IMG/VR virus record: IMGVR_UViG_3300005805_000096
Span: 1 to 59,377 of that record
Reading direction: 5' to 3' (one strand)
Length of the DNA: 59,377 nucleotides
Source of the DNA: a virus
Taxonomy: Duplodnaviria; Caudoviricetes
The translations under genes were made by a program, and so were the position numbers. The notes under the pieces are model-generated. The model made no database searches. It was not told the origin of the DNA and saw only the letters and a program-made list of their open reading frames with translations. Shown here piece by piece: positions 22,534 through 50,700 of this stretch (positions are counted from its first letter, which is position 1; the number at the start of each line of letters is the position of its first letter).

Positions 22534-23586
22534 TTAGCTACCCAAAATTTTCTGTTGATTTACAAAATAATCATGGTTTTCAATTAAACTTACTAAACTG
22601 ATAGTTGGTTTGTAATCTGTCATCTTAGCTTTGGGAGAAATCGTATCCCAATAACTATGTGCTTCTAAGAGATAATCGCTGGCTAACCCATAATAACCTA
22701 CATCACAAGGCTGTAACTTAAAATAATCACACCAATGAGTTTGTCGCTGCTTGATAATGTCAATTATAGTTTGCTGCGGAATATCTAAAAATCTATTTAA
22801 AACTGCAAAATTAAGTCTATTCTGATACTCTCTTTTTAATTTTATGGTCTGAAAATCATTTAAGGGTAGCCTACTATATCTAATCCCAGCAGGAACTCCT
22901 TGCAATGGAAAAATTTTACTGCACCCAAAACTGATATTTTCTATAGCTGGGCTAGAAAAATCATATACTACCTTGCTGGTCACTACACTGAAGCAAGCAT
23001 CTATTAACACAGGAATTTGCAAATCTTCACATTGATTCAACAAATTCTGCATGTTTGGATGTATGGCGCCATACCCACTGAAAGGTGCACTGATTAATAA
23101 TGCATCACCTTTGGCCAAAGGAACATCCTCAACATAACTCCAATTGAAATTATTGGCTTCTAATTGCTGCACATTATAAATCCACTCACCCTTGCATATT
23201 TTTATATGTTTGTTCCTATGACGAAGGTAAAATAAATCAAAAGCCTGTGTATTGCCATCTATAGCATCAACATAGTCAAACTGACCTAATCCTAGATAAA
23301 GGTTGGCGGTATTGTGTAACCAATTTTTAAATTTATCAACAGTGTTATCTACAATCTGTGTATCTCTAGACACCCATAAATCCAAAGGTTGAGATAACTG
23401 TGTTAAGCTGGGAGGCAATAACAAGGGTCTAGTACCAATATAAACATATTTCTTTCGTTGATATAGATCCTCAATCTTGTTGCTGGTTGCTAGGTTACAA
23501 GTAAATTCACCATTGTAGATTTTACGTTGCTGTTCACCTATAGCAATAAGCCAAGCAAAAGTATCTAATAGATCAAATCTTGTCAT
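22534..23586 (-). CDS. PLP-dependent (fold type I) aminotransferase-like enzyme
   Basis: G.TQAFD, S.PFS..G, VLIDACF, SFGCSK.F…GIRY (putative PLP lysine). Confidence 0.65.
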   Translation of the reverse strand: MTRFDLLDTFAWLIAIGEQQRKIYNGEFTCNLATSNKIEDLYQRKKYVYIGTRPLLLPPSLTQLSQPLDLWVSRDTQIVDNTVDKFKNWLHNTANLYLGLGQFDYVDAIDGNTQAFDLFYLRHRNKHIKICKGEWIYNVQQLEANNFNWSYVEDVPLAKGDALLISAPFSGYGAIHPNMQNLLNQCEDLQIPVLIDACFSVVTSKVVYDFSSPAIENISFGCSKIFPLQGVPAGIRYSRLPLNDFQTIKLKREYQNRLNFAVLNRFLDIPQQTIIDIIKQRQTHWCDYFKLQPCDVGYYGLASDYLLEAHSYWDTISPKAKMTDYKPTISLVSLIENHDYFVNQQKILGS

Positions 23587-24464
23587 AGAATTATAGTTTT
23601 TTGAAATTGATTGCCAAAACTATCATTTCCGTCTTTAACGCCGCAGGTATTTTTACAAATCCTGTTTGGAGTATTAGTCCAACTTTGTATCAATTCATTA
23701 AATCTGTTTGATAAATCATAGTCTGATTGTTGAAATCCTTGCCAACAACAAGGGTGCCACTTGCCCATAGCATCAACATAAATGCTTTGTTCAGCTAAGG
23801 CTCTACATTTAATATCGGTGCTTTCTATCACAGGATCTTTATAGTTTTTTGGTGGTTTTAAAAAAGGTATAGGTGTAGATTTGTGACGTCTGCTGACTTT
23901 AACTTGAAATCTATTAAATTTCATTTTATTTGCTAACTTTAATGCCTGCTCAACTTGATGTTCGTTGTGTTCAAATACCAACATATCCCAATGCGCTTGC
24001 CCACCCGCAGAAATAAACGCTTCTGCGTTTTCCATAATCCTATACCATTGAGTATTAATTCTATAAATGTGATTGGTATCCTCCAGCCCATCAATGCTAA
24101 AAGTGACCCAATCTCTAGGTCCATTTAGCACAGATGCTAGTTCACCCCACCATTTTGGTGACCTTATACTGCCATTGGTATTCATACCTAAGGTGATATT
24201 TGGATTCACTGATTTAAAATATTGAAAGATTTGTAAGGTATCTCTAGCAGCAGCTGGATCACCATAATTACCGCACATAAACATCTTAGTCAATTGACCG
24301 ATAAATTGCTGCGAGAACAAACTCTTACATTTACCTAAGGATAACTCAGCATAGGTGAACTTTTTAAAAGTTCTAGGACATTGTGGACAGGCTGCATTAC
24401 AAACCGTAGTTGGTTCTAGATGCAAGATTTTAATATTCTGAAGATCAAAAGTATTAGCTGACAT
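23583..24464 (-). CDS. Radical SAM protein with C-terminal SPASM/twitch-like Cys cluster
   Basis: CNAACPQC; GNYGDP, TNGS, FSIDGL; C…PCCW…C..TC. Confidence 0.9.
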   Translation of the reverse strand: MSANTFDLQNIKILHLEPTTVCNAACPQCPRTFKKFTYAELSLGKCKSLFSQQFIGQLTKMFMCGNYGDPAAARDTLQIFQYFKSVNPNITLGMNTNGSIRSPKWWGELASVLNGPRDWVTFSIDGLEDTNHIYRINTQWYRIMENAEAFISAGGQAHWDMLVFEHNEHQVEQALKLANKMKFNRFQVKVSRRHKSTPIPFLKPPKNYKDPVIESTDIKCRALAEQSIYVDAMGKWHPCCWQGFQQSDYDLSNRFNELIQSWTNTPNRICKNTCGVKDGNDSFGNQFQKTIIL

Positions 24465-26226
24465 TTACATCGGTACCGTATTCCGTAAAGCCGTTGGACT
24501 TAACCACGCTTAATACGTTATTAACCCTACCCGCTAGTTCGTCTTTGTGACTGACTAGCCAAACACTTCTACTACCTTCTCTGCTCATCTTCTTGAGAAT
24601 AGCTAGAGCATTTTCAACACCACTACTATCCATACCACTATCCACTAGCTCATCAATGAACAATAGATTAATTGGATGATATAAACTTTCCCAAACATCT
24701 CTAAATGCCCAGCTTAGACTCAATATCAATCTATTGCGCTCACCACGCGACAGATTATCAAAATCTAATCCTCTACCCAATTCTTCAATGCTTACAGTTA
24801 AATCGTTGAGGAATTTTACAGTATGTGGCAATCCAATCTTATCCAAATAATAGCTAAGCCTTGCGTTGAGATAGGATAGATTCTGATCAATAATCTTTTT
24901 ACGTATAAATGAATCCTTGTTAGTTAACAGTTTTAACAAGAATTCTTGATGTTCTTTGATTTTTGTTAGCTCATTGATAAGATCATAACTAATCTCTTCC
25001 AAAGCTCTATCCTGCATTTCTTTGATCTGTTCTGCATAAGGATCCACTTCGCTTTGTTTAGCAGTGAGTTGGGTTAAAACATTGGCCATACTACTGCGAT
25101 GTTCAAAGGCATCACTTTCTTGATCGTAAAATATTTTAGGCTTATCACCCAACACACCCAGTAAAGTTTTATCTGATTGCAGTTTTGTCAATAAATCAGT
25201 AAAAGAGCTAATTTCTAATTCTGCTTGACTTAATTCTTTTTTCTTTGTTTTTAAAACTTCTTTGTGTTTCTTATCGTGTAGATCCTGACCACAGGTATGA
25301 CATTTGTGATTTTCAATACTTGTGATTTCTAATTTTAGTTTATCTACGGTTTTTTCTGCTTTGGTAATATCTAGTTTAGCTCGTTTTATATGTGAATCAA
25401 TATCTGATATATCAGCGGCTAATTTGTTATATGCAGCTAATTTTTTATGAGCCTCTAATTCAGCTTCAATATCAATCTTAGCTAGTTCATCATAGGCTGC
25501 TTGGAGACTGTTGATATCACCATCTTTTTTGTTTTGCCAAAGAGTCTGCCTGCGAATCAAAGATTCTATCTGTTCCTTAATGCGCAGATTAGCGTCGCCC
25601 ACAGCTTTGATACGCATTTCTTCTTGGCTAATAGTATCTTTTGTGACTTTTGCTTGTTCCTTTAATTGCTCAGCTTTTTCACTCAATACGGTGATACCTA
25701 ACAATTGTTCAATAATTGTTCGTTGATCGTTAGCACGTAAGCTAAGGAATGGTTCAGTATATGTGTTTAGGGCAACGATATGTTTGAACATATCGTGACT
25801 CATATTCAGCAGTTTTTCAATCTCATGCTGTGTTTCTCTGCTGTCACCTTGACTATTATCGTCCTTGCTCTCTTGTTCTTGATCACCAATAAAAAATTTA
25901 AGTACATTGGGACGACGGCCACGTTCAATTCTATAATGTTGACTATTGTGTTCAAAGTCTATAGTAACCAACATATTTCTACTGTTGGTTCTATTAATCA
26001 AATTATCTTTTTTAATATTAGTAAGAGCTTGTCCAAACAGCCCATAACTTACCGCATTTAGAATAGCGGTTTTACCAACACCGTTCCTTGCTCCAGCATC
26101 GTCACCACCCAAGTCAAGATTTTCTCCCAATACTAGAGTTAGATCTCTGCGGTCAAAGTTAATGCCTTGTGTATTATTGCCTATGCTTAAAAAGTTTTTT
26201 GCCGTTACGGTTTTTATCTTTAACAT
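24454..26226 (-). CDS. gp46: Recombination exonuclease ATPase subunit (gp46/SbcC/Rad50)
   Basis: NGVGKT Walker A, CHTCGQ zinc hook, LSRGE signature, LFIDE Walker B, SH. Confidence 0.95.
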   Translation of the reverse strand: MLKIKTVTAKNFLSIGNNTQGINFDRRDLTLVLGENLDLGGDDAGARNGVGKTAILNAVSYGLFGQALTNIKKDNLINRTNSRNMLVTIDFEHNSQHYRIERGRRPNVLKFFIGDQEQESKDDNSQGDSRETQHEIEKLLNMSHDMFKHIVALNTYTEPFLSLRANDQRTIIEQLLGITVLSEKAEQLKEQAKVTKDTISQEEMRIKAVGDANLRIKEQIESLIRRQTLWQNKKDGDINSLQAAYDELAKIDIEAELEAHKKLAAYNKLAADISDIDSHIKRAKLDITKAEKTVDKLKLEITSIENHKCHTCGQDLHDKKHKEVLKTKKKELSQAELEISSFTDLLTKLQSDKTLLGVLGDKPKIFYDQESDAFEHRSSMANVLTQLTAKQSEVDPYAEQIKEMQDRALEEISYDLINELTKIKEHQEFLLKLLTNKDSFIRKKIIDQNLSYLNARLSYYLDKIGLPHTVKFLNDLTVSIEELGRGLDFDNLSRGERNRLILSLSWAFRDVWESLYHPINLLFIDELVDSGMDSSGVENALAILKKMSREGSRSVWLVSHKDELAGRVNNVLSVVKSNGFTEYGTDVNVS

Positions 26227-26256: not shown

Positions 26257-27273
26257 CTATAGATGCCTATAAATGTCTAACAGTAGATTATTATCATAAT
26301 GTTCACTGGTAATCGCTGTGAGTTGGTTGGTTACTATTTGATCTACACTTTCAAACGCCACATTGCCCTGCATTTGAAACTGTTCTAAATCAGTATTTTT
26401 CTGTGGAATCAATGTGATCTCACGCAGTTTATATTGGCTAATATAAGTTTCTTTGATAAAGTTTGCTTCTTCATAGCTAATATCAATATCTAAATTAACT
26501 CTGACATGCATACCCTCCTGCAACATTGCATCAGAATTGTTTAGCACTGACCCCAAACCATAAACTCTATATCTTGGTTGATTAGGCCAACTGTAAAACA
26601 CAGGATCTTTGCCCCATTCTAAAACCATCATGCCTCTTTCATCATCAGCGGCATCGGCATAGTTATGTGGAAAGCAGTTACCTATATAGGTAATATTTTT
26701 GTATTCTTGTCGTTTATGGAAATGTCCAGTAAACACATGATCAAAATTTGAAAAATGTTCACGCTTCACTTCACCCACATCAGGCATCTGTACCATAGCA
26801 TTCATATAAAAATGTGGCAGTTCAAAATGGCCAAACATATATTTGCCTTTTAGCTTTTGAACTTTTTTATGATCATTACCAACTAACCACGGAGCAATAA
26901 CTACATCGCCCTCGCTAAACCAATCATTGCATATGGTTACGTTGTTAAGATGTTTTGCCCATGCAACACTTTGAATATCGCGTTTGTCTCTATAATAAAG
27001 ATCGTGGTTACCAGGAATAAAAAGCACTCTATCAAAATTTGCGTTGAGATGTTCTAAAGCCCGTAGACTATAGTCCAACGTTACTATATTGATGCTGGCT
27101 CGATTGTTATGCCAGTCACCCAAAAACAATGCGGTATCGCAGTTTTCTTCCTTAGCTTTAGCGGTGAACCAATGTATGAAGTTCAAACAATCGTCGTTGT
27201 GAATTTGACTATTGCTTTTCAATCCAAAATGTATGTCTGTACAGACTGCTGCTTTTTTAAATAAGTTGGTCAT
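26257..27273 (-). CDS. gp47: Recombination nuclease subunit (gp47/SbcD/Mre11)
   Basis: DIHFG, GDWH, GNHD, GHFE and GHFH metallophosphoesterase motifs. Confidence 0.95.
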   Translation of the reverse strand: MTNLFKKAAVCTDIHFGLKSNSQIHNDDCLNFIHWFTAKAKEENCDTALFLGDWHNNRASINIVTLDYSLRALEHLNANFDRVLFIPGNHDLYYRDKRDIQSVAWAKHLNNVTICNDWFSEGDVVIAPWLVGNDHKKVQKLKGKYMFGHFELPHFYMNAMVQMPDVGEVKREHFSNFDHVFTGHFHKRQEYKNITYIGNCFPHNYADAADDERGMMVLEWGKDPVFYSWPNQPRYRVYGLGSVLNNSDAMLQEGMHVRVNLDIDISYEEANFIKETYISQYKLREITLIPQKNTDLEQFQMQGNVAFESVDQIVTNQLTAITSEHYDNNLLLDIYRHL

Positions 27274-27325: not shown

Positions 27326-28204
27326 TTATTCATCATGAAAATTGTGATCGCCTCCACCACGCAGACCTTGTCTAGTATAGCTTGGGGTAAGGTTGTTTAG
27401 TTCCAATATATCATCACGTAGATTTTGATTACGTTTTTCAATATTTAATACTCTAGTAAATGAGTTTGTAATAGCAGCGGTATAATATGCAAAGGGATTT
27501 TGACTCTTGCTTTCGTCAAACTGTAATCCAATCTGACTTAACTGTAATAATGCTTGGCTACGCATTTCATCGTTATAAGTATAGCCACGCCAATTACTAC
27601 GAGTAGCATAGCGCTCACACAATTTCATAAACATCAATGCTAGTTTTGGGGTCATAGTGCCGTGTTCTCTGCTAAACTTTCCAGTTTTAACCCCACCAAT
27701 CCAATGGCTTTTACCTATACATATTAGTTCATCTTTATCATCAAACTTATAATGTTGGAATGGAGGAAAGTTTACCTTGACATACTTGTTGTGTTTTGGG
27801 TCATCTTCATCGTACTCTGTATGCAGTGAATCTTCTTCTTCAAACAGTTCTTTAGCAGCAGCCTTAGCCTTTTTAGTTTTCACGTCATCCAACGGGATGT
27901 GTTCCCAAGTCATAACTCTAAATACAAGGTCTGTAACCGGTATTTTTGTGTGTTTGATCTCAAAGGACTCTAATTTCAATTTTTGAGTTCCGGCTTTGGC
28001 TTGGGCTTGTTCGTAAGCTATTCTGCTTAATCTTTCTGCTCTTGCTTTTTTGGCGGCAGATATATTTTTCTTATTGATCTTGCTTAGATCAGCTACGATC
28101 AAGTCGTAGTCTGCGAATTCTGGTTTTTTAAAACTGCAATAACTGCTTTTGCTTTTGTGGATCTCCTTAAGGATATCTCGGTTGTTTAGGTAATTGTGTT
28201 TAAT
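27326..28204 (-). CDS. gp55: Late transcription sigma factor (gp55-like), probable AUU start
   Basis: NW.GYTY.DEM…F…KS.NPFAY.T….NSF motif. The frame is open upstream of the track start through NYLNNRDIL.EI; GGGAG SD lies 7 nt before ATT at 28204. Confidence 0.85.
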   Translation of the reverse strand: MKHNYLNNRDILKEIHKSKSSYCSFKKPEFADYDLIVADLSKINKKNISAAKKARAERLSRIAYEQAQAKAGTQKLKLESFEIKHTKIPVTDLVFRVMTWEHIPLDDVKTKKAKAAAKELFEEEDSLHTEYDEDDPKHNKYVKVNFPPFQHYKFDDKDELICIGKSHWIGGVKTGKFSREHGTMTPKLALMFMKLCERYATRSNWRGYTYNDEMRSQALLQLSQIGLQFDESKSQNPFAYYTAAITNSFTRVLNIEKRNQNLRDDILELNNLTPSYTRQGLRGGGDHNFHDE

Positions 28205-28231
28205 TTTAAATCTCCCTATAAAGGTAAGTGA

Positions 28232-28261
28232 ATACTAACAGATTTCAATGGACTAAGTCAA
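28232..28261 (-). promoter_or_regulatory. Sigma70-type promoter for gp55
   Basis: TTGACT, 18-nt spacer, extended -10 TGtTAGTAT. Confidence 0.6.
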
Positions 28262-28318
28262 GTGTTAAATTATATGATACTTTTTTAAAACCCATAAATA
28301 TTTACACAGGAAATAACT

Positions 28319-29209
28319 ATGTCAATTAATACCAGTCCTTCATTTAACAGTGATAATTACTCCAGCATAAATCCAAGCGCAACCACCGCCGGCATTCTGC
28401 AACCACAAGCCGCCAATAATGCTGATCCTGCTAGTTCAAGACTAAGTGCTAGCGGGTTAGTTGCGGGTGCGGTAAGCCAGTTTCAAAAGTTTGGTGGCAG
28501 AGTATTTAACTTTAATTTCACCAATCAAAACGGTGCAGCCATAGATTCAGCTGATGATTGGCGGGTACGGATCAGTATGCAGCCTGCTACTGCCGCATAT
28601 TTCTATAATGCCAGTAATATGGTAACAAAACCGTTGGTAGAAACCAAAGGTGTAATATTTCCATATACGCCGCAAGTACAGGTTATTCATTCAGCAAAAT
28701 ATGGAAGTCAGCCCTTAACACATAGTAACTACCCTGCATATTTCTATGATTACAGTGAGGTACAAGCAATCACTATATCTGGGGAGTTCACTGTACAAAA
28801 TGCTAAAGAAGGTCAATATTTGATGGCAGCTATACATTTTTTCCGTAGCTGTACTAAAATGTTTTATGGCAATGAAGCATTAGCTGGTACACCACCACCA
28901 ATGGTATTTTTAGATGGCTATGGTAGTAGTTACTTTCCGCATGTGCCTTGTGTGTTACAACAGTTTACACATACTATGGGTGCTGATGTTGATTATATTG
29001 AAGTGCCTATAGGTGTTGATGTAACACAGGGCCCAGTGAATACTAATCTAGTAGGGATAAAAACTAGATTGCCAACCACCAGTAATATTTCAATTCAACT
29101 ACAACCTGTTTACAGTAGAACAAACATTGCTGATAACTTTACGTTGACTGATTATGCACAAGGGTTCCTAACACAGAATTTCACAGCCCCATCTGGAGGG
29201 TTCTTATAA
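28319..29209 (+). CDS. Baseplate/tail-tube initiator-like protein (gp48/gp54-like)
   Basis: GVIFPYTP, F.RS.TKMFYG…G.PPP…L.GYG…VP.V; precedes a gp53-like gene; TAAATA at 28295-28300. Confidence 0.65.
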   Translation: MSINTSPSFNSDNYSSINPSATTAGILQPQAANNADPASSRLSASGLVAGAVSQFQKFGGRVFNFNFTNQNGAAIDSADDWRVRISMQPATAAYFYNASNMVTKPLVETKGVIFPYTPQVQVIHSAKYGSQPLTHSNYPAYFYDYSEVQAITISGEFTVQNAKEGQYLMAAIHFFRSCTKMFYGNEALAGTPPPMVFLDGYGSSYFPHVPCVLQQFTHTMGADVDYIEVPIGVDVTQGPVNTNLVGIKTRLPTTSNISIQLQPVYSRTNIADNFTLTDYAQGFLTQNFTAPSGGFL

Positions 29210-38757: not shown

Positions 38758-41700
38758 ATGCCTGTAACCAAAACTTTAAATTTTTTACCAACGGTATTCC
38801 AAAGCGAAACCAATCAAAAATTCTTAAATGCCACAATGGACCAATTGGTCACAGAACCAAATCTTGTGACTATCAATGGTTATGTTGGGCGCAAATTTGC
38901 ACCAGGTGAAGTAGATGTAACAGAATATGTACGTGAACCATCTACTGCTAGAGCAGACTATCAACTTGAACCTTCTGTCATTGTTAAAGAAACATTGTCT
39001 GGCAATGTTGATTTCCATGTAGCATATCCTGAGGTGTTACAAAAAATAGCATTTTACGGTGGTAAAACTGATAATCAAAGCAGGCTTTGGAGTCAAGAAT
39101 ATTACAGCTATAATCCTTTAATAAACTTTGATGCTTTCATTAACTTTAATCAATATTATTGGCTACCTGATGGACCCTCTGCTGTTAATGTGTTTGCGGG
39201 CGGAACTGAATTAGAAAAAACTTATTACATTTATCCAGACTCCGCAGCTGGAGTCTATAATATTAGTGGGTTTGGCACGGTAAGCAACCCTGATTTGGTA
39301 TTAGCTAGGGGTGGAAATTATCAGTTCAAAGTAAAACAACCAGGGAAACCTTTCTGGATTCAGACTGATCCGGGTGTAAACGGTACTCAAATAGCTAACA
39401 GTAATCTAACTAGTAGACAAATCTTTGGGGTCACAGGCAACGGAACAGATGACGGCACAGTTTATTTCAATGTACCTGATGTAACGGCTCAGGATGTGTT
39501 TGTAACCATGCCTACGGTACAAAATGTTGATTTTGCTACCAATCTTAAATTTAATCAATTACAAGGACAATTAGTTAGTACCATTAATGCTGCATATGGT
39601 GGTATCGATGGTCAACAAACAAACTGGGGCGGCAAATTCCTTATTTTTACCACACTGTGGGCAGACGATGCAGATTGGACAGTTGGGGCAACCACTGTAC
39701 CTTTTTATGAACGCACTGGCATATTTGAAATAAATTTAAGCCCTAGTGGTAGCGATTATGTAGTAGATCTTGACTACGTTGCAGATATACCATTGAATAA
39801 TAAAGTAGCTATACTAAGCGGTATACAAAACGGTAATACAGAATGGTTTAAAAACCCAACTTATGTGCTTGAATTAGTACCAATAGTAACAGCAAATTTA
39901 GATACATTGTATTATCAAGATGGTAGTGACCCAACTCAAGTTGGCGTAATTAAAATAGTTGATCCAAACACTGCATCAATCAATATTGATACGGATATTT
40001 TAGGTAAGAAAAACTATATTAGTCCAAATGGAGTAACATTTACCAATGGACTTAAGATACGTTTTGATATAAATGTTACACCAGAGAGTTATCAAGAAAA
40101 AGAATATTACGTAGACGGTGTTGGCATTGCAATTACTCTCACTCCTGTAACCAATTTGGTTGTAAATTTTGCGTTAGGTGCATCAAATTATGATCCTACT
40201 ACAGCTTTCACTGGCTTGGCTACGGCTACCTACGATAGGACTTTGGAGACTTTATCGATTAGCACCGGTGATGTACCTGCAAATGCAAATATTAGTTACG
40301 GAACTTTCCCAAATTCTATAAACTCAAATTATATTATAACCCAAGATATTAATCTATCATTACCCTACAAGGGCGGATTAAATGATCCTGGTGAACATGT
40401 TAGTACACAACTACGAGATGACGTAATAGGTATGACAGCCGTAGGTATTCCTATTTTTGGTACTTATGGTGGGGAATATGTGCCAGGAGGTAGTGGCACA
40501 CAGTGGCATTTAAACACGACTACTGTTAAAATTAATGGACAGGACGTATATAACGGGTTTGTTGATGATGAAGGTATATACCAATACACCGATAGTTCTT
40601 TTATTACAGCCAATGCATGGGGTAATGTTAGCGGGTTTACAGTAACAGACAACGGTTATTTAGATGTTAATGGGCATAGCAAAATCGTAGGTTTCGCATC
40701 AGACGGATACCCTATTTACGGTCCATTTGGTTATAGTAATGCACTAAGTTCTTCATCTAGTATTATCAGAATGGTCAGCGGATATACTGCAAATGTCAGC
40801 AACCCAGATCGTCCGCAATCACAAACAGTAAATGTGGCATTGCCGGCTAGCTCAAACATTATTACCGTAAACACAAGTTTTGATATTAATCCTGGCATGA
40901 GAATTACCACAAACGACGCTGGAATATTAAGCGGCACCGTTTGGGTCATACGTAGCGGACAGCAAACTATTGTAGGACTAAATGGACATAATCTTACAGT
41001 TAATCAAATTCAATTGAGTAGCAATGTAACAGTGTCTGAGGGTAATAGTTTAACCTTTGCTTATTTGCCTGGTGCATTTATTGAAGATTATACCTTTAGC
41101 AGCAATGTAGGCACATTAGACGAATATAATGGTAGATTTTGTGTTACACCAGAATATCCTAATGGGACCTATGCATATTTTGCTACACAGGATAACACTA
41201 ATACTCCAACATATCCTTATTTTATCGGTAGTGCTTTTTTTGGTAGCTTAGAAAATGATACTAATTCAAACTTATCAGAACCAGAATATATAACGATCAA
41301 TAGAAGTAGTAGAGACTTAAACCCGTGGAGTAGACGTAATAGATGGTTTCATAAAGATGTAATAACAGCCACAGCAATTTATAATAACACTATACCGTTA
41401 TTGGACCAAAATTATAAAGCAAAGCGACCTATAATAGAATTTGATCCTAATATACAATTATTTGACTTTGGAATAAACGGCCTACAACCAATTGATCTAT
41501 TAGATAAAACAACCACCAATCCATTCTTAACCTTTGAAGGGGCAACCAGTGCAGAAATTGATGGAATTGAACTAGTTAATAATATGCGTGTGATTTTCAC
41601 CGCAGACGAAGATCCATTAACTAGAAATAAAATTTGGGTTGTAAACTTTGTTGAATTAACCCCCGGGGCGGAACTTACTATACATTTAGAACTGGCTTCG

Positions 41701-44700
41701 GATGGTAATGTACAAGCCAACGATACGGTCAGTGTATTCAGTGGAGAGACTGAAGCTGGCAATAGTTATTATTACAACGGCAGTGTATGGGATCAAGGAC
41801 AGCGTAAGATTCAGACCAACCAACCACCATTATTTGATATTGTAGATAAAATTGGAATAAGTTTTAGTGATAGAAGCAAATATCCACCATCTGTATTAGG
41901 TTTGACCTTTAACGGTAATAAGATTTTTAGTTATACTGAAGGAAGTGGTGTCAACGATCCAGTGTTAGGCTTTCCATTAGCCTATAAAAACCTTAATAAT
42001 ATTGGTGATATTGAATTTACGAATAATTATGATACTGAATTGTTTAGATATACCGTTGACCAAATAAACTATGTTGATAAAGTTAATACTGGCGATTTAA
42101 TAAAAAATAATGATGATGGATCTAAAACTAGGTTAAATGTTTGGACCACTGTGGTTCAACCTAGTAGACAATATCAGGTTATTCCTTATGTGTTTGATGG
42201 TATAACCAATAGTTTCCTGATAGATGTAATGCCAGATCAACCAACTAGTTTACCTACTCTACAGGTTTACGTTAATTTTAAATTATTAAAACCAACGCAA
42301 TATCAAATTTTTAATTTACCGCAAAACAAAAAATCAATAACAATCAGACCTTCATTAATTGAACAAGGTGATAAGATTGACATTTTAGTTATAAGCAAAC
42401 AAGTAAGTCAATTAGGATACTATGAAATCCCGGTAAATCTAAATTACAATGCACAGAACTTTGTTCTAAATAAACCTACCTTAGGTGATATAAGAAATCA
42501 TATAGGTGAGTTAACAGAAAATAGTTTACAATTTAAAGGGCAATATCCTGGTAATAGTAATCTGCGCGACATTTATGTAGCAGCGCAGGGCGGCACAATT
42601 TTACAGCAAAGTGCTCCTACTACCTTATCTAGCATGTTCCTTTGTGATGAACAAATGAATGTAGTAAATGCTATATTAAATGCACAACAAGAATATACAA
42701 GATTCAAAAATAAATTTTTGAATATAGCAAGTACAGATGCTAACGTAAATGTAAGTGATCCTATTTCCGCCGTTGATTACATTATACAACAGATTAATCA
42801 AATAAAGAATAAGACTTTTCCGTGGTATTATAGTGATATGATACCATATGGTGATAATAAACAAATCATAACTTATAACATCTTTGACCCATTAGAACGT
42901 AGGTATGAAATAACCAATTTATTTGATATGCAGACATTGAGCAATCGCGCAGTGCTGGTATATCTAAATAATCAACAGTTAGTTTGGAGTAAAGATTACG
43001 TATTCAATCCTACTTTACCGGCCGTAGAACTTCTAGATAGAGTAGTTTTAGAAGTTGATGATACTCTAACCATAGTGGAATATGCAGATACTGACGGTAA
43101 TTGGATACCAGAAACGCCAACGAAATTGGGGCTTTACCCTAAATTTGTTCCTATAATTTATACTGATGACACTTATAGAACACCAGTACAGATGATTAAA
43201 GGCCATGATGGAAGTTTAATGCCTGCCTTTAATGATTTTAGAGATGCAATTTTATTAGAATTAGAAAGAAGAATTTATAACAATATAAAAGTTGAATATA
43301 ATGAAAAATTATTCAGCATATATGATAGTAAACCAGGTAAATTTAGAAATATTGGATATACTCAAGCTGAGTGGTCTAGATTACTAGCTAGGGTTTATTT
43401 GCCATGGACTGGATTTAATAATTTAGATTATGTGACAAATTCAACCTTTGTAACCGATAATCCTTGGACATACAACTATGCAGCCAGTTTAGATGTTGTT
43501 GATAGTGAGAATTTACCTGGAAGTTGGCGTGCTTGTTTTGATTATTTTTATGATTGTCAAACACCACACTTGCGCCCATGGGAAATGTTAGGCTTCAGCG
43601 AAGAACCTGATTGGTGGCAAGACACTTACGGTCCAGCACCTTATACGTCAGGTAATACCATATTATGGACAGATTTAGAAAACGGTTATATTGCTGCTGG
43701 ACCAAGACAGGGTATTGATCCTACTTTTACTAGACCAGGTCTCAGTCAATTTATTCCAGTTAACGTTAACGGTGAACCAATGCCGCCAATTGGATTGTTA
43801 ACTAACAAATATAACCAATCTACATTCAATAAAAATTGGCAAGTTGGTCAATGGAGTCCAGTTGAAACTGCTTGGAGAAACACCAGCGAATACCCGTTTG
43901 CATTTCAATTATTAGCAGCAGTTACTCAACCAGCAAAATATTTTGCTGTTGGTGCCACAATTAACAAATATAAGTTCAATGAAGATTTACAGCAGTTCTT
44001 AATACAAGATACTAATTATAGATTAACTCAACAAGATATTGAAGTTAATGGTTATGTAACTCTTGACAATACTATTCAACGTAGTGCCAGCTATATTAAC
44101 TGGATTGGTGATTATCTAACCACTTTAGGAATTCTTAATAAAGGAAACCTATTACGATATATTAGAGATTACAGTGTTCAACTAAGTTATAGAATGGCAG
44201 GGTTTAGTGGAAAAAATTATTTAAAAATCTTAGCAGAACAAAATAGTCCCAATAGTATTAATCAATCTGTGATTATTCCTGACAGTGATTTTGCTGTTGA
44301 GTTAAACAAGTCTACTCCACTTAACAATGTTAGGTATAGTGCAGTTATAATTGAAAAGTTAGCTGAAGGTTGGTCTGTTAGTGGATATGATTTTAATAAC
44401 CCTTATTTCACAGTAATCATTCCTACAGCTAAAGGTTCAAACAGAACAGTTTCATCTTTGAATCTCAGTGTCGATTGGTTTACTGAATTTACAAACCTCA
44501 AAGTTAATGTTCCTTATCAAACAGTGTTTGACAATAATCAACAAATAGCCACATTCTTGTGCGGTTACCAAAGGTTTTTACAATCACAAGGTTTTAGGTT
44601 TGACTATTATGACCCTGATCTAGCCCAGATAAGAAATTGGGATTTAAGCGCCAAAGAATTCTTATTTTGGGTTGAACAAGGTTGGCCTGCAGGTAGTGTT

Positions 44701-47700
44701 TTAATACTAAGCCCTATAGCTGACAACCTAAAGTTTCAATTTAATGCGGCGGTGGTAGATGGTATTGAAAATACCTTTTATGGCACCAAAGTAATGACAC
44801 AGAATTATGTAGTTTTAGACAGTGATGCATATACTGTAAACAGAGATAATAATGTTTTTAAATTAAGTTTAGATAATAAAACAGGAGACCTAATAGGTTT
44901 TGTTAGTTTAAATCTTGTTCAGTACGAACATGTAATTATCTTTAATAATATCACTCAGTTTAATGATATAATATATGACCCGGCCAGTGGTCAACGCCAA
45001 TATAAGATGAAAGTTGTTGGTAAAAAAACAGGAGATTGGACGGGTCAATTGGCCGCGCCAGGCTTTGTATATAATAGTCCTGGTGTTATTTCTTGGAGGC
45101 CAGATACAGATTACCTAAAAGGTGATCTAATAGAATATAAAGGATTTTATTATGCTGCCAGCAAAGACTTACCTGGCACTCCTGAATTTATATTTGCCAA
45201 TTGGATTCCAGTAGATAAGGATAAAATTCAAACGGGTTTACTGCCAAACTTTGCAACAAACGCAGGGTTATCCGTAGATTTCTATGACGTTGACGGGGTA
45301 AATTTAGACAGTAAGTTTGACCTTTATAGCTTAGGATTGATAGGTTATAGAAATCGTAGTTATTTAAATGATTTAGGCGTTGATGATACAACACAGGTTA
45401 AATTTTATCAGGGGTTCATCAAACAAAAAGGCACACTCAATGCTATTAATGCTTTAGCAAATGTTAGTTTTAATAATGAAAATACTAGCGTAAACATAAA
45501 TGAGGAATGGGCATTTAGAGTAGGAGCCTACGGTAGTTTAGCTACGAATCAATACGTTGAGTTGGTGCTGGATGAAAGCTATACCCTAAATAACCCAACT
45601 AGCTTATTAGTTAATAGTAATAATGTTGTTACATACACCTCTCTATATAATGATGGTCAAGGTCTATACAAAACTTCTGAGATGCCATTTAGTTCTCCAT
45701 TTTTGTTAAACAGAACAAATAACAGCATTAGAACAGATGATATACAAACAGCGGGCTATGCTAGTTTAGAGGATGTTGATTTTACAATCTTTGACATTAA
45801 AGATTTGAATTCTCTTAATGGTAACCTTAATAATATCGGAGTTGGATCAACCATATGGGCAGCAAAATCCTATGCTAACGAATGGGAGATTTATAGGGTA
45901 AATGAAACTTATGCAGAAGTTCAACGTATTGACAATAGTCTAAATGGATTCTACCTTATAACTACTAATGTGGCACACAATTTTGCAACGAGTGACATTG
46001 TACTATTAAAAAATTGCGGAGTATTTTCAGGATTTTATCAAGTTGAGATTGTCCCTACACTTAATACTTTTATTATCAATTTTGGAGTAGCTATTCCTGA
46101 TTTTAATAGTTTAGTTACAATTTCTAGTCCTGCATATAAATTAACAAGTCAGAGGTTTACCTATGGCAGTGAAATAAAGTCATCAACTCCAATTGAAGGA
46201 TACAGAGCTAATAGTAAAGTTTGGGTAGATAACGCAACAATCAATAACACTTGGGCAGTATATAATAAATCTAATCCGTGGTTAGCAAATACATCACTTA
46301 GTCAAAGCGAGACCTATGCTAACTTAAATTATGGTTCAGCAACACATATTACACAAAACAATGAATTTATTGTAGTTGGCGCAAGTGGGTTTAATAACGG
46401 AGTTGGTAGGTGCTATACTTTTGCCACAGATGATGCTGGTAATTACGCTGAAAAACCATACATAGATCCATATTCAATTGACTCTAAAGAATTTGGTATC
46501 ACCGTAGACGGCACAAATGATGTTGTAGTTATTGGCGCACCAGGCAGCAGAAACGATACTGGATACGTGTTTTATTACAGCAGAAACTTTTTAGGACAGA
46601 TAAATCTACAACAGGTTATTGGTACAAATGTCTCTGGTGCACGATTTGGTCAAAGTGTTAGCGTTAGTGACGATGGTGAATGGCTATACGTTGGTGCACC
46701 AAACGAAGATGCTGTATATGTTTATAGTTATAATACCAACATACCACTGCAAAGTGATACAGTAGTTGGTAATGGTGTTGCTACAGTTTTCACATTGTCT
46801 TATACACCAGTAGATCAAAATACTTTAGTTGCTACCTTAATTGATACACCTATTATTAATTATGTACCCGGGGTTGATTTTACAGTCACTGGAGCAACAA
46901 TTACGTTCACGTCACCACCAACTGCTAATGTAGCTGTGGTGCAACGTGCTGGATTCCAGTTTGTTGATAAGATATTAGGCACAGCAGGATCTAAATTTGG
47001 TTATAGTGTTGCCACTAGTACTGGTGGGGCCCAGGTTGTTGTTGGTGCTCCAGATCTAAACGTTAACGGTGATATACAAGCTGGTGGTATATCTGTTTAT
47101 GATAGAAGTATTGAAAAATTCATAGCCAACGGAAGTCAAAGCCAGTTTGGTGGGCAGAGACCAGTTCAATCATACAGTAAAGTTTATATCGATGCAAATT
47201 TACAGGCTACACCAACTAACTATACCGTCAGCGGCAATAATGTAAACTTTACGACAAATGTATCAGCTGGCAGCATAGTAACTATTGAAACGGATGAATT
47301 TTACAAAATTCAAGATCTATACCCTGCAGACAATCAATCAGAAGCAAAATTTGGCTACAGCGTTGACTTATGCAGCTTTAATTGCAGCATCTATGCAGGT
47401 GCACCATTTGAATCTACTGATGTACGAGCAAGTATCGGTAGTGTGTATAGATTCTTAAATCAAGGTAGGGTATATGGTACAATAACCGGCACGGTACAAA
47501 ACCCAGTAGTTACTGCCAATAACAGTATTAGATTGAATGATTTTGAAGTAGTGTTTAGTGGAGGAAACTTAACCTCCATAGTGAATTCAATTAATAATGC
47601 AGATATTCCCGGGGTCACAGCAACCAATGTTGGCGGATATCTAACCATTAACTCTGATAGTGTGTTGGTAGCAGATAAATTAAGGGTATTGCCTGGCGTA

Positions 47701-50700
47701 GGAAACACCCTTGATCAATTAGGGTTGACTGTATTTGAATATGTTGAAGAAATTACAAATCCAACAGCAAACCCTTATGATAACTTTGGTAAAATAGTAA
47801 AAATCAACGACTCAAGTGATGTACTAGCTGTAGGTAGTGATAATGGTATCACAGTAAGTGACTGTACATTTGATAATAATACAACAACCTTTGACGCCAT
47901 AAGCACAAGTTTTAGTGATGCAATTACCAGCGGTGCTGTGTGGGTGTTTAGTTATATACAGGATGCAAGAAACAATATAGATAACCCTGGTAATTTTAAT
48001 TTTGTTCAGCAGATAAGTCCGCAAGGTAATGCATTGGTATCAGGAGCTAACTTTGGCTCTGGATTAGATTTTAAGAACTATAGAATGGTAATTGGTAGCA
48101 CAGACTATACCGGAACACTATTGAATCAAGGTCAGGCTTACTTATATACAAATCCTCAACAATTGACTGGTTGGGATGTCATAAGAGAAGAAAGTCCAAA
48201 AGTTGATATAAGCTGTATTCTAAAAAGCTATGTTTACAGTGTTAATAACCAAACTATCATTAATAATTTAGATTATATTGATCCTGCTAAAGGTAAAATT
48301 TTAGGTAATGCTGAACAAGATATTACCTACAAAACTGATTACGACCCTGCAATTTATAATGTAACCAATTTGGATAATGTCAGTGAAGATACAATTTTCC
48401 ATTGGAATAACAATCAAGTTGGTCAGGTCTGGTGGGATCTTAGTGCAGTTAGATATTTGGATTATGAACAAGGTTCAATTAAATATCGTGCAAATAATTG
48501 GGGAAGAGAATTTCCAGGAAGTAGTATAGATGTTTATGAATGGGTTGAAAGCATTTATCCACCAAGTCAATACGTAGCTAATGGTGGTAATGGAATACCT
48601 AAGTATTTAGAAGGACAAAATGCTTATGTAGCTCTAAGTTATGTTGATCCTGCTACAAATCAACCCACAGTAAAGTATTATTTCTGGGTTAAAGATAAAA
48701 CAGTAGTTACAATAAATCAATTTGGAAGAACTATTCCTACCACCAGCATAGCTGATTTAATACGTAATCCAAAAGGAAGTGGAATTAGGTATTTTGCTGC
48801 TATCCGCGACGATGCTGTGGCAGTCTATAATATGGTTGGACTACCTGTTGGTAAGGATACAATATTCCATTTAGATTATGCTACCTTATTAAACAGTAAT
48901 ATTATTCACAGTGAATATGCGTTGGTCAGTGAAAAAGCGCAACGGTCTGAAGTTATTCCAACTAATATATACAATAAATTAGTGGATAGTGCATGCGGTG
49001 CAGATATATTTGGAAACAATGTTCCAGATCCTTTCCTAACACCACAAACACGTTATGGTATCGATTTTAGGCCGAGACAAACCATATTTGTTAACAGATT
49101 TGAAGCCATTAAAGAAATGGTTAGTTTTGTTAACAGAGTATTTTCTAAGAACCTAATAAGTCAAAATTATGATTTAAGTACATTAAACAGCGTTGAACCG
49201 ATACCACCAGTAGAGTTAGGTTTGTATGATATCACAGTACCTACATATGAAACATTGGGCTATATTGATATTACCATACAACCAATTGGCTATAGTGTAT
49301 TGGTTGAAAGCGATGCAACGGTAAGCGGGTTGTGGACCATCTATATAAAACAGGCTAATAACACTTGGTTATTGACAAGGGTACAAGCTTGGTATACCCC
49401 TGAATACTGGGAGTTTGTTGATTGGTATGCTGACGGGTTTGATTCTGGAGTTAAACCAACTTATACAGTTAATACACCAGCAGACTTATCAACCCTACAA
49501 TTGCAACCTAGAGATATTGTTAAAATATTGAATAATGGTAGAGGCAAGTGGGTTGTTGTACAGGTATTTAGAACAGAGGTTGTAACTATAGCAGTTGAAT
49601 CAGGCACCATCGCCCTTAAAGATAATCTATATGATTTAGAAAAATATGGTATGGGTTTTGGTAATGGAAACTTTGATATACAAAGATTTGATCAAAACCC
49701 AAGTATAGAATTAAGGTTTATATTTAATGCTCTTAAGAATGACATCTTCATTAATCAGCTAGGTCAAGAATTTATAAACCTATTCTTTGTGTTTATTAAT
49801 TATGTATTGAATGAACAAAAGTATATTGATTGGGCATTTAAAACTAGCTTTATAACTGTATTACATAAAATACGCGGGTTAACACAACCACCACTATTTA
49901 GAACTGAGAATCAAGATTACTATAAGCAGTATATTGAAGAAGTCAAACCATACCACACTACTATCAGAGAATATATTATTGATTATCAAGGTGCTGATAA
50001 TCTAAACGGGTATGTAACTGACTTTGATGTACCTGCATACTATGATTCAGTGTTAAATCAGTGGCGTAGCCCAAGCGGTGAATTTTTCCAAGACGGGGTT
50101 GCCTTACAAGAACCTAAATATAGAGATTGGTTGTTGAATTACAGTTATAGCATTGGCTCTTTAGAAATTGCCGATGCAGGTAGTGGATATACCTTACCGC
50201 CAGTTATTACAATCACTGGTAGTACCATTGGTAACGATGCAGTAGCCAAAGCTATTGTAAGCAATGGTGTTATTTCTAGAATAGAAGTTTTGTACGGAGG
50301 ATCTAATTATATAACGCAGCCAATCGTAACTATAACAGGCGGCAATGGCTCTGGAGCACGAGCTTATGCAATACTTAAAAATGAAACTACTCGTAAACTT
50401 AAGACTACATTAGTTTATGATAGAATAACTTATGGTACAGATGTTATTAATTGGGAACCAAATACCAGTTATGTAGCTGGACAGATTATTGCCTATAACG
50501 GGGTTGCATATACAGTAAACAGTAATTTTACCAGTGATGATACATTCAACGGAAATAATCTAACAATATATCAAGCCAGCGGATTCCGCACTGCTAATGA
50601 TAGAATTCAAAGTTACTATCAACCAGAAGTTGGATTACCGGGTAAGGATTTTGCACAACTTCAAAGCGGAATTGAATATCCTGGTGTTGGAGTTCAAGGC

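What the first reader, a model, noticed from the sequence alone, without database searches (positions are those of the whole stretch)
28102..28237. Late sigma factor gp55 appears to initiate at a non-canonical AUU codon
Seen: upstream of the track's TTG (28102) the frame stays open and encodes IKHNYLNNRDILKEIHKSK, resembling the NY(V/L)NN N-terminal motif of gp55 proteins. Between the in-frame TAG (28237-28235) and this motif there is no ATG, GTG or TTG. A GGGAG SD (28216-28212) lies 7 nt before ATT (28204-28202). Known: AUU starts in infC and pcnB make translation low and IF3-sensitive. Inference: the early-to-late switch may be gated by initiation-factor status.
Basis: partly seen in the sequence, partly recalled or inferred. 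Interest (0 to 1): 0.75.

Follow-up and report, generated by a model that had tools for sequence, protein, structure and literature searches.

The report
Phage late sigma gene starts at ATT
The late-transcription sigma factor gene of this uncultured lake giant phage, and of many of its relatives, almost certainly begins translation at the weak codon ATT behind an unusually strong ribosome-binding site, which suggests its output is deliberately tuned.

Summary
On the minus strand the gp55-like frame is open from TAG 28237-28235. It holds no ATG, GTG or TTG before the conserved NYLNN N-terminus. GGGAG (28216-28212) lies 7 nt before ATT (28204-28202).

ATT is not an error. Contigs of 4 lake-water runs from one study show no difference there.

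Among 150 unique relatives found by protein search, 26 carry ATT at the codon where the others carry ATG, GTG or TTG. An exact-context scan of IMG/VR found 56 ATT, 82 ATG, 16 GTG/TTG, 8 ATC and 0 ATA contigs.

ATT goes with GGAG 6-8 nt upstream in 55 of 56 contigs, against 9 of 98 canonical starts. The link holds in phylogenetically independent pairs. ATT rows are not one clade (AU p 1.9e-5).

The N-terminal stretch is under purifying selection (dN/dS 0.09). It models as helix H1 of the sigma region-2 fold.

In a 338-kb relative, gp55 is the only such gene.

Initiation at AUU is well supported. Gating of the late switch by IF3 remains untested inference.

The parts
27326..28204 (-). gp55-like late-transcription sigma factor gene read from ATT: 292 codons plus stop
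   Evidence: phrog_12791 'sigma factor for late transcription', E 6e-79, over residues 2-279; phrog_234, E 2.8e-22. T4 gp55 chain 7d7c_F, E 7.5e-6. Model against 7d7c_F: Z 8.7, residues 5-281.
28202..28204 (-). ATT, the proposed near-cognate start codon
   Evidence: It sits at the same alignment position as ATG, GTG or TTG in relatives. ATT is found in 26 of 150 unique relatives and in 56 IMG/VR contigs with the identical K-H-N-Y-L-N-N context. There is no synonymous mixing at this codon, unlike internal Ile codons.
28212..28216 (-). Shine-Dalgarno sequence GGGAG, 7 nt before the ATT, followed by the A-rich spacer ATTTAAA
   Evidence: GGAG lies 6-7 nt upstream in 26 of 26 ATT rows, against 10 of 118 canonical rows. 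In the pattern scan it is 55 of 56 against 9 of 98.
28235..28237 (-). In-frame TAG that closes the frame upstream; it is also the first three bases of the -10 hexamer
28232..28261 (-). Sigma-70-type promoter: TTGACT (28261-28256), 18-nt spacer, TG-extended TAGTAT (28237-28232). It predicts a leader of roughly 20 nt.
   Evidence: Consensus scan. Relatives keep GGTTGACA ... TGTTAGTAT at the same place (listing). The transcription start is inferred, not mapped.
28100..28102 (-). TTG, the first canonical in-frame codon (the gene caller's start); rejected as the real start
   Evidence: No SD lies upstream of it. The position of the first downstream canonical codon ranges from 2 to 92 codons after the motif among the ATT rows.
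26257..27273 (-). SbcD/gp47-like nuclease gene directly downstream (conserved synteny)
   Evidence: phrog_100, E 3e-59. The same neighbour is annotated in PA5oct, Atu_ph07, RaK2, BF, XaC1, Munch and vB_Ec-M-J.
28319..29209 (+). Divergently transcribed virion structural protein gene, which bounds the 114-bp intergenic region
   Evidence: phrog_12050, E 5e-35.

Best explanation
The gene at 27326-28204 (minus strand) encodes a gp55-type late-transcription sigma factor of an uncultured freshwater jumbo phage. Near-complete relatives are about 340-355 kb.

Its mRNA is made from a near-consensus host sigma-70-type promoter (TTGACT, 18 nt, TG-n-TAGTAT). The transcript probably starts about 20 nt before the coding region (inferred).

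Translation starts at AUU 28204-28202 with initiator tRNA. Initiation is directed by a strong GGAG SD at the optimal 7-nt spacing, an A-rich spacer (AAA at -3 to -1) and an AAA second codon.

In this phage lineage two interchangeable designs of the initiation region exist. One is AUU (rarely AUC) with GGAG. The other is AUG/GUG/UUG with the weaker AAGGA. Lineages have switched between them several times, which points to selection on the amount of sigma factor made.

Shown here: the absence of any canonical start, the homology of the ATT to canonical starts, its recurrence, its co-variation with the SD, and constraint on the N-terminus.

Inferred from established knowledge of AUU starts (infC, pcnB): output per mRNA is low, and it is specifically sensitive to IF3 and to host physiology.
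For: (1) There is no ATG, GTG or TTG between the in-frame TAG and the conserved N-terminus.

(2) Homology runs up to residue 2-5 in tblastn against PA5oct, Phosso, Atu_ph07, RaK2 and other phages and in phrog_12791. All 8 cultured relatives inspected start with ATG 4-9 codons before the N/K-Y/F-L motif.

(3) 161 sequences were examined (the window plus 160 loci). Five lacked the motif and one (L123) had no start assignable within my limits. That left 155, of which 150 were unique: ATG 102, ATT 26, GTG 20, TTG 2. The ATT occupies the same codon as the canonical starts. In L006 a TAA lies two codons before the ATT.

(4) The exact-context scan of IMG/VR (x-K-H-N-Y-L-N-N) gave ATT 56, ATG 82, GTG/TTG 16, ATC 8 and ATA 0 contigs. 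Forty-one of the 56 ATT contigs have no in-frame canonical codon back to the stop. In the other 15 it lies 6 or more codons upstream, before the SD.

(5) At two conserved internal Ile or Ile/Leu positions of the same 26 genes, synonymous codons are mixed (ATC 10, ATT 11, ATA 3; and ATC 8, ATT 6, ATA 12). Overall Ile usage is 46% ATT. The start position is ATT in 26 of 26.

(6) GGAG lies 6-7 nt upstream in 26 of 26 ATT rows, against 10 of 118 canonical rows. AAA at -3 to -1 occurs in 22 of 26 against 4 of 124. Mean SD duplex energy is -7.5 against -4.9 (ATG) and -5.6 (GTG) kcal/mol, Mann-Whitney p 1.4e-11. In 7 phylogenetically independent pairs GGAG follows ATT in 6 and goes the other way in 0, p about 0.03.

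(7) The tree of 144 rows needs 15 ATT/canonical changes, at least 7 of them forced by well-supported branches. The AU test rejects a single ATT clade (p 1.9e-5).

(8) dN/dS is 0.089 over the first 27 codons among ATT rows (36 pairs with dS under 3). Y5, L6, N8, D10, L12, I15, S18, K19, C23, D34 and I36 are invariant in 73 sequences. The model's residues from 5 onward align to T4 gp55 from residue 10 (Z 8.7, rmsd 4.2, 115 residues aligned).

(9) Contigs of 4 runs cover 28202-28204 with 0 differences.

(10) The feature is gene-specific. It is the only such candidate among 94 open stretches of the window and 744 of a 338.5-kb, 97%-complete ATT-type relative.

(11) The leader is unstructured (z -0.64) and there is no Rfam match.
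Against: There is no direct evidence of translation: no RNA run was listed and there are no proteomic or ribosome-profiling data for these uncultured phages.

The host is unknown.

The contigs are not independent samples. Many come from related lake metagenomes, and IMG/VR and JGI contigs overlap; only exact duplicates were removed.

The 4 runs belong to one study and may include the sample the window was assembled from. They are low-depth contigs, not raw reads.

The tree is a quick LG+G4 search.

Fifteen of the 56 ATT contigs do have an in-frame TTG, GTG or ATG further upstream, so a longer product cannot be formally excluded for those.

Cultured enterobacterial relatives combine GGAG with ATG, so GGAG is not by itself a mark of ATT starts outside this clade.

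The T4 structure paper states that the N-terminal region of gp55 homologs is poorly conserved and that many lack it (PMC7892883 passage). That refers to the disordered T4 terminal segment, but it warns that N-termini of this family can vary.
Confidence: 0.85

Rival explanations
1. ATT is the true start but has no regulatory meaning. Under stabilising selection on gp55 amount, a weak codon with a strong SD and a strong codon with a weak SD are near-equivalent, and lineages drift between the two. No IF3 or physiological gating is exploited. This rivals only the gating inference, not the ATT start.
For: Switching between states is repeated (15 changes, at least 7 forced; AU test). SD strength co-varies tightly in the compensating direction. 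Close sisters differ only in this module, for example L011 (GGAGA with ATT) against L101 (GGAAA with GTG).
Against: ATT is strongly preferred over the synonymous near-cognates (56 ATT, 8 ATC, 0 ATA). The ATT module is stereotyped: GGAG at 7 nt, then AAA, ATT, AAA. It is unique to this one gene in a 338-kb genome. These points suggest a selected design rather than free drift. None of this proves gating.
Confidence: 0.45
2. Translation starts at the downstream TTG (28102-28100), as the gene caller assumed, giving a 258-residue protein without the NYLNN helix. The upstream open frame would be untranslated leader.
For: TTG is a canonical start and is the first one in the frame.
Against: No SD lies before it. 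The position of the first downstream canonical codon varies from 2 to 92 codons among ATT rows. The skipped residues are invariant or nearly so, under purifying selection, homologous to the start of cultured relatives' proteins, and align with the first helix of the sigma region-2 fold of T4 gp55.
Confidence: 0.03
3. The ATT is a sequencing or assembly error of ATG, or a recent inactivating mutation in a decaying gene.
For: A single G-to-T change would produce it. Depth in the available contigs is low, 3-7x.
Against: Four separately assembled runs agree. There are 26 unique relatives at 62-78% protein identity and 56 IMG/VR contigs with ATT. All have intact frames and a matched SD, and the frames are under purifying selection.
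Confidence: 0.01
4. Another upstream event supplies the N-terminus: initiation at the in-frame ATA (28219-28217), or a canonical start in another frame followed by a programmed frameshift.
For: ATA is also a near-cognate codon and is in frame.
Against: The ATA overlaps the SD, has no SD of its own, and is not conserved in relatives. L006 has a stop two codons before its ATT. The conserved promoter's -10 hexamer contains the in-frame stop, so the predicted transcript begins downstream of it. No ATA starts were found in the context scan.
Confidence: 0.02
5. The GGAG plus AAAAUU module is primarily a binding or cleavage site for a phage regulator, comparable to the T4 RegB nuclease that cuts at GGAG or the RegA translational repressor (T4 properties recalled, not from a call). 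The ATT would be incidental.
For: The module is stereotyped beyond the SD itself: AAA at -3 to -1 in 48 of 56, and an AAA second codon.
Against: No match to Pfam REGB_T4 or Translat_reg (RegA) was found in the window or in four larger relatives' records, including two that are 97-98% complete. These searches had no positive control, so absence is not shown. A-rich spacers and an AAA second codon are also ordinary enhancers of initiation (recalled).
Confidence: 0.05

Closest known systems
E. coli infC (IF3) and pcnB AUU start codons
   Same: A near-cognate AUU serves as the only start of a regulatory gene (infC also uses AUC in other bacteria) and is phylogenetically conserved. Per PMC5499595 (passages read), such starts are discriminated against by IF3 and are more sensitive than AUG to cold, nutrient limitation and ppGpp. 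In vivo, AUU gives about 1-2% of AUG (0.02-3% across constructs) in E. coli reporters (bioRxiv 10.1101/063800, passages read). The same two codons, AUU and AUC but not AUA, are found here.
   Different: infC is autoregulated because its product is the discriminator. Here the product is a phage sigma factor, so any IF3 dependence would be a one-way input from the host. No phage IF3 homolog was found in 5 records, with a working control. Here the weak codon is paired with a strengthened SD and alternates with canonical codons among close relatives.
Streptomyces sigR GTC start codon repressed by IF3 (PMC5472188; abstract and discussion read)
   Same: A sigma factor's amount is set by a non-canonical start codon behind a very extensive RBS (AGGAGGTG). 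The start is conserved within a genus but not outside it, and it is mis-annotated by gene callers. All four points are paralleled here.
   Different: The codon differs (GTC against ATT/ATC). sigR is a cellular sigma factor balanced against an anti-sigma factor. IF3 dependence was shown experimentally there and is not tested here.
Bacteriophage T4 gp55 (PDB 7d7c/7d7d; PMC7892883, passages read)
   Same: The sigma region-2 homology domain is homologous. The N-terminal K-x-N-Y-(V/L)-N-N helix motif is shared. The gene lies beside the gp47/gp46-type nuclease genes.
   Different: T4 gp55 has 185 residues, and I recall it as starting at ATG. The window's protein has 292 residues, with about 155 extra residues between helix 1 and the rest of the domain. 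The T4 late-promoter word TATAAATA is not enriched in the window (1 found, 9.4 expected). A clamp-binding C-terminal motif was not identified.
Jumbo-phage 'sigma factor for late transcription' family phrog_12791 (PA5oct, RaK2, Atu_ph07, Phosso, Serratia BF and others)
   Same: Full-length homologs at 37-43% identity over 94-95% of the protein, with the same neighbours.
   Different: All 8 cultured members inspected start with ATG. ATT and ATC starts were seen only in the uncultured clade that holds the window; its 106 tree rows are ATG 59, ATT 26, GTG 19, TTG 2.
Internal AUU start of T4 baseplate gene 26 (recalled: Nivinskas et al. 1992; not found in the paper library)
   Same: A phage gene product initiated at AUU.
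   Different: As I recall it, that is an internal secondary start producing a shorter peptide, not the sole start of a master regulator. I could not read the paper.

Membership tests
gp55-type phage late sigma factor (phrog_12791 / phrog_234; T4 gp55) | Sequence homology to the gp55 sigma region-2 homology domain | tested here: met
   phrog_12791, E 6e-79, residues 2-279; phrog_234, E 2.8e-22, residues 180-275. T4 gp55 chain 7d7c_F, E 7.5e-6, residues 188-258 aligned to 43-115.
gp55-type phage late sigma factor (phrog_12791 / phrog_234; T4 gp55) | Fold like gp55 helices H1-H5, with the N-terminal helix included | tested here: met
   AlphaFold2 model: pLDDT 74.9, pTM 0.64. Best structural match is 7d7c_F: Foldseek E 0.058, probability 0.98; VIA-align Z 8.7, rmsd 4.2, 115 residues, model 5-281 against chain 10-153, followed by cellular sigma factors at Z 5-7.5. 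The Z is moderate for a helical protein.
gp55-type phage late sigma factor (phrog_12791 / phrog_234; T4 gp55) | Genomic position beside the gp47/gp46 (SbcD/SbcC) genes | tested here: met
   phrog_100 (SbcD) at 26257-27273 and phrog_77 (SbcC) at 24454-26226. An SbcD/gp47-type neighbour is annotated in 7 of 8 cultured relatives inspected; Phosso has a glycosyltransferase there.
gp55-type phage late sigma factor (phrog_12791 / phrog_234; T4 gp55) | Recognition of TATAAATA-type late promoters | tested here: inconclusive
   TATAAATA occurs once in the window against 9.4 +/- 3.0 expected. CCATAAATA lies upstream of two genes but is not above chance (2 against 1.47). The late promoter of this clade is unknown.
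gp55-type phage late sigma factor (phrog_12791 / phrog_234; T4 gp55) | Works with a sliding clamp (gp45) through a C-terminal clamp-binding motif, and with gp33 | tested here: inconclusive
   Pfam DNA_PPF (PF02916) found nothing in 5 records, but the control rang nowhere. gp33 was not searched. No clamp-binding motif was recognised by eye in the C-terminus.
Genes with a near-cognate AUU/AUC start subject to IF3 discrimination (infC, pcnB type) | No canonical start is available, and the near-cognate codon sits where homologs have their start | tested here: met
Genes with a near-cognate AUU/AUC start subject to IF3 discrimination (infC, pcnB type) | SD at functional spacing in front of the near-cognate codon | tested here: met
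   GGAG at 7 nt in the window; 6-7 nt in 26 of 26; 6-8 nt in 55 of 56.
Genes with a near-cognate AUU/AUC start subject to IF3 discrimination (infC, pcnB type) | Conservation of the codon itself, beyond what an ordinary Ile codon would show | tested here: met
   26 of 26 ATT at the start against mixed ATT/ATC/ATA at internal Ile positions. 56 ATT, 8 ATC, 0 ATA in the context scan.
Genes with a near-cognate AUU/AUC start subject to IF3 discrimination (infC, pcnB type) | Protein N-terminus mapped to that codon, and output rises in IF3 fidelity mutants or when the codon is changed to AUG | not testable with these tools
   This needs proteomics, ribosome profiling and reporter assays. No RNA run was listed for this sequence.

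The most novel reading that the evidence does not exclude
The AUU (or AUC) start of the late sigma factor is a selected translational sensor. Because AUU initiation is uniquely sensitive to IF3, ppGpp, nutrient state and cold, the phage would make enough gp55 to enter the late, lytic-commitment phase only when the host's translation apparatus is in a permissive state. The AUU+GGAG and AUG/GUG+AAGGA designs would then be two alternative life-history settings, 'conditional' and 'unconditional' late switching, between which freshwater jumbo phages repeatedly toggle.
Probability: 0.3. Interest if true: 0.8.

Novelty: new member of a known kind. Interest (0 to 1): 0.6.

Why it matters
If AUU is the start, three things follow.

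First, gene callers systematically truncate or misplace this master regulator in a large group of uncultured jumbo phages. The window's track starts 34 codons too late.

Second, it adds a viral case to the very short list of conserved near-cognate starts (infC, pcnB, sigR). This case comes with natural 'swap experiments': sister phages that differ only in start codon plus SD. Those pairs offer ready-made constructs for measuring how start-codon identity and SD strength trade off.

Third, it makes a concrete hypothesis testable: that the early-to-late switch of a phage can be coupled to host translation-initiation status. Cloned leaders in E. coli IF3 mutants would test it without culturing the phage.

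Tried and rejected
- RNA evidence: no RNA holder was listed for the stretch, so expression and 5' ends could not be examined.
- Known RNA elements: an Rfam scan of 27900-28500 found nothing at E up to 1. The leader fold is no better than shuffles (z -0.64).
- Phage-encoded IF3: Pfam IF3_C had no match in the window or in 4 larger relatives' records, with the control working in 10 of 14 genomes.
- RegA (PF01818), RegB (PF10715) and gp45 clamp (PF02916): no matches, but no control rang either, so these are uninformative.
- T4 late promoter TATAAATA: 1 found against 9.4 expected. CCATAAATA: 2 against 1.47 expected. Neither supports a late-promoter motif.
- Pfam: no gp55 family matched the protein; the only hit was a sub-threshold DUF6904.
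- Foldseek against the PDB gave no hit at E <= 0.001. gp55 ranked first at E 0.058.
- Other near-cognate starts: scans of the window and of the 338.5-kb relative turned up only trivial cases (1-3 codons before a canonical ATG) or implausible frames.
- Literature: searches for a prior report found none. The library lacks most subscription journals, and supplements were closed.
- Rows dropped before counts: L050, L053, L057, L070 and L116 (no motif match by my regular expression, mostly 5'-truncated); L123 (its only candidate, GTG, lies 11 codons upstream, outside my limit); duplicates L104, L023, L109, L037 and L144; and 6 incomplete genes left out of the tree.
- Script correction: my first script picked the upstream one of two tandem ATTs in L042, L096 and L143. 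This was corrected.
Full report
**Observation.** On the minus strand the frame of the gp55-like gene is open from TAG 28237-28235. It reads YSLTFIGRFK, then ATT (28204-28202), then KHNYLNNRDILKEIHKSK. No ATG, GTG or TTG occurs before TTG 28102-28100. GGGAG lies at 28216-28212, 7 nt before the ATT.

**What the gene is.**
- The 292-residue product read from the ATT matches PHROG 12791, 'sigma factor for late transcription' (E 6e-79, residues 2-279), and PHROG 234 (E 2.8e-22).
- Pfam has no family for it above threshold.
- The only solved relative is T4 gp55 (7d7c_F, E 7.5e-6). Residues 188-258 align to gp55 43-115. Residues 2-28 align weakly to gp55 7-33 (KYNYVNNKELLQAI).
- So the protein is a gp55 with about 155 extra residues between the first helix and the rest of the sigma region-2 homology domain.
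- An AlphaFold2 model from 73 homologs (pLDDT 74.9) finds gp55 as its best structural match. Foldseek gives E 0.058 and probability 0.98. VIA-align gives Z 8.7, rmsd 4.2 and 115 aligned residues, model 5-281 against chain 10-153, followed by cellular sigma factors.
- SbcD- and SbcC-like genes follow downstream, and virion and baseplate genes are transcribed divergently. Cultured jumbo-phage relatives are arranged in much the same way.
- The window is a 59-kb fragment of an IMG/VR viral record, estimated 17% complete. Near-complete relatives are 338.5 and 354 kb. The runs that hold it are labelled lake-water metagenomes.

**Is the upstream stretch coding?**
- tblastn to cultured jumbo phages aligns from residue 2-5 onward.
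- All 8 cultured relatives I inspected (PA5oct, Phosso, Atu_ph07, RaK2, Serratia BF, XaC1, Munch, vB_Ec-M-J) begin with ATG 4-9 codons before the N/K-Y/F-L motif.
- In an alignment of 73 homologs, Y5, L6, N8, D10, L12, I15, S18, K19, C23, D34 and I36 are invariant.
- Among the ATT-type genes, dN/dS over the first 27 codons is 0.089. This rests on the 36 pairs with dS under 3; most pairs are saturated.
- The first canonical codon downstream of the motif lies anywhere from 2 to 92 codons in. The window's TTG has no SD in front of it.
- The N-terminal 34 residues are therefore translated and needed, and they form the helix that corresponds to H1 of gp55.

**Relatives found by protein search.**
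- Scans of IMG/VR and of JGI metagenome contigs each returned the best 80 of about 600 relatives.
- Of 161 sequences, the window included, 5 did not match my motif expression and one (L123) had no start within my limits.
- That left 155, of which 150 were unique. Their starts were ATG 102, ATT 26, GTG 20 and TTG 2.
- The ATT sits at the very codon where sisters have ATG, GTG or TTG, usually 3 codons before N-Y.
- In L006 an in-frame TAA lies two codons before the ATT.

**Collection-wide scan.**
- I scanned IMG/VR for the exact context x-K-H-N-Y-L-N-N with different first codons.
- The counts were ATT 56 contigs, ATG 82, GTG/TTG 16, ATC 8 and ATA 0 (parsed).
- Forty-one of the 56 ATT contigs have no in-frame canonical codon back to the upstream stop. 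In the other 15 that codon lies 6 or more codons upstream, before the SD.
- Six of the 8 ATC contigs have the same architecture (GGAG at 7 nt, no canonical codon upstream) and probably start at AUC.
- If this codon were an ordinary internal isoleucine, synonymous codons should be mixed. They are mixed at two conserved internal Ile or Ile/Leu positions of the same genes (ATC 10, ATT 11, ATA 3; and ATC 8, ATT 6, ATA 12). Overall Ile usage there is 46% ATT.

**Co-variation with the ribosome-binding site.**
- All 26 ATT rows have GGAG 6-7 nt upstream (7 nt in 22). AAA occupies -3 to -1 in 22 of them, and AAA is the second codon in 19.
- Canonical rows mostly have AAGGA. GGAG occurs in 10 of 118 of them, and AAA at -3 to -1 in 4 of 124.
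- In the pattern scan GGAG lies 6-8 nt upstream in 55 of 56 ATT contigs. It lies within 16 nt in 7 of 82 ATG and 2 of 16 GTG/TTG contigs.
- SD duplex energies average -7.5 kcal/mol for ATT, against -4.9 for ATG and -5.6 for GTG (Mann-Whitney p 1.4e-11). These used an E. coli-type anti-SD sequence that I recalled.
- On the tree, 7 phylogenetically independent contrasts exist on well-supported branches. GGAG goes with ATT in 6, the other way in 0, and does not differ in 1 (sign test p about 0.03).
- Cultured enterobacterial relatives combine GGAG with ATG, so the rule holds within this uncultured clade only.

**Phylogeny.**
- The tree has 144 rows and was built with a quick IQ-TREE LG+G4 search, leaving the start region out.
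- A clade of 38 rows is almost all ATG (37 ATG, 1 GTG). The clade of 106 that holds the window has ATG 59, ATT 26, GTG 19 and TTG 2.
- ATT against canonical needs 15 changes, at least 7 of them forced by starred branches.
- Constraining the ATT rows to one clade costs 471 log-likelihood units (AU p 1.9e-5).
- The state has therefore switched repeatedly, or the 5' module has recombined. ATT also persists through deep sub-clades.

**Promoter and leader.**
- A sigma-70-type promoter, TTGACT-18-TAGTAT with an extended-10 TG, lies at 28261-28232.
- Relatives keep GGTTGACA ... TGTTAGTAT at the same place (listing).
- The in-frame TAG is the first half of the -10 hexamer. The predicted transcript therefore starts downstream of it and cannot carry an upstream start. 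This is inferred; no 5' ends are available.
- The leader has no significant structure and no Rfam match.

**Error check.** Logan contigs of four runs from one study cover 28202-28204 with no differing letter: X1 28158-28600, X2 27953-28317, X3 28188-28600 and X4 28104-28254, at depths of 4-7. These may include the source sample. The independent argument against error is the many divergent contigs that share the ATT.

**Gene specificity.**
- In the window's 94 open stretches of 80 codons or more, gp55 is the only one with an SD, a near-cognate codon and a long open frame before the first canonical codon.
- The same holds for the 744 such stretches of the 338.5-kb, 97%-complete ATT-type record G001. 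There the gp55 ATT is followed by 58 codons without a canonical start.
- A crude census of 45 likely genes in the window gives ATG 34, GTG 3 and TTG 8.

**Mechanism.**
- What is shown is the anatomy above. What follows from established knowledge concerns AUU initiation.
- AUU is read by initiator tRNA with a third-position mismatch and is rejected by IF3. infC uses AUU or AUC and is autoregulated this way. In E. coli extracts AUU mRNAs were the most sensitive to added IF3, cold, poor medium and growth phase; non-AUG starts as a group were sensitive to ppGpp (PMC5499595, passages read).
- In vivo, AUU gives about 1-2% of AUG (0.02-3% across constructs) in E. coli reporters (bioRxiv 10.1101/063800, passages read).
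- The closest functional parallel is Streptomyces sigR. There a non-canonical GTC start behind an extensive RBS keeps a sigma factor low through IF3, and gene callers mis-annotate it (PMC5472188, abstract and discussion read).
- I therefore read the window's design as a weak, fidelity-checked start codon partly offset by an optimised SD, spacer and second codon.
- Whether the phage exploits the resulting IF3 or physiological sensitivity to time late transcription, or merely reaches the same expression level by another route, cannot be decided here. No phage IF3 homolog was found.

**Novelty.**
- Seven full-text searches found no report of a non-canonical start in gp55 or in jumbo-phage sigma factors. 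The library lacks most subscription journals, and supplements were closed.
- I recall, but could not read, a 1992 report of an internal AUU start in T4 gene 26.
- The kind of feature is known (a near-cognate start on a regulator). Its presence on a phage late sigma factor, its breadth and its tight SD co-variation appear to be new.

Noticed in passing
IMG/VR loci L321-L325, L327 and L322 (positions as listed): Seven contigs carry ATC instead of ATT at the gp55 start position. Six of them (two distinct leader types) have GGAG 7 nt upstream and no in-frame canonical codon back to the stop, so AUC also seems to serve as a start. No ATA was found.
   Followed up: partly
window 27641-28117 (-), about residues 29-187 of the protein: Relative to T4 gp55 the protein carries about 155 extra residues between helix 1 and the rest of the sigma region-2 domain. 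The insert is confidently modelled in part (pLDDT 86-93 over residues 21-100) and has invariant motifs (N145 F146 P147 P148 F149 H151; S166 H167 W168). Its function is unknown.
   Followed up: no
window 1-59377: The T4 late-promoter word TATAAATA occurs once where 9.4 +/- 3.0 are expected. The late promoters read by this gp55-like factor are therefore probably different from T4's.
   Followed up: partly
window 38758-51903 (+): A single open reading frame of 4381 codons lies within the baseplate/virion gene block.
   Followed up: no
L134 and L136, about 15-30 nt upstream of the ATT (listing): A short GC hairpin sits directly before the SD and shows changes on both arms between the two contigs (CCGC-TGTAAT-GCGG against CCGCG-TTA-CGCGG). 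It may be a 5'-end stabiliser or a structural element of the leader in that sub-clade.
   Followed up: no
window 23583-24464 (-): A protein matching a radical SAM domain family (phrog_21308, E 2.7e-19) is encoded directly downstream of the SbcC-like gene.
   Followed up: no
L123, L133 and L142 (metagenome contigs): A small sub-clade has a longer N-terminal extension, with GTG 8-11 codons before the motif instead of 3-5. The start of L123 could not be assigned within my limits.
   Followed up: no
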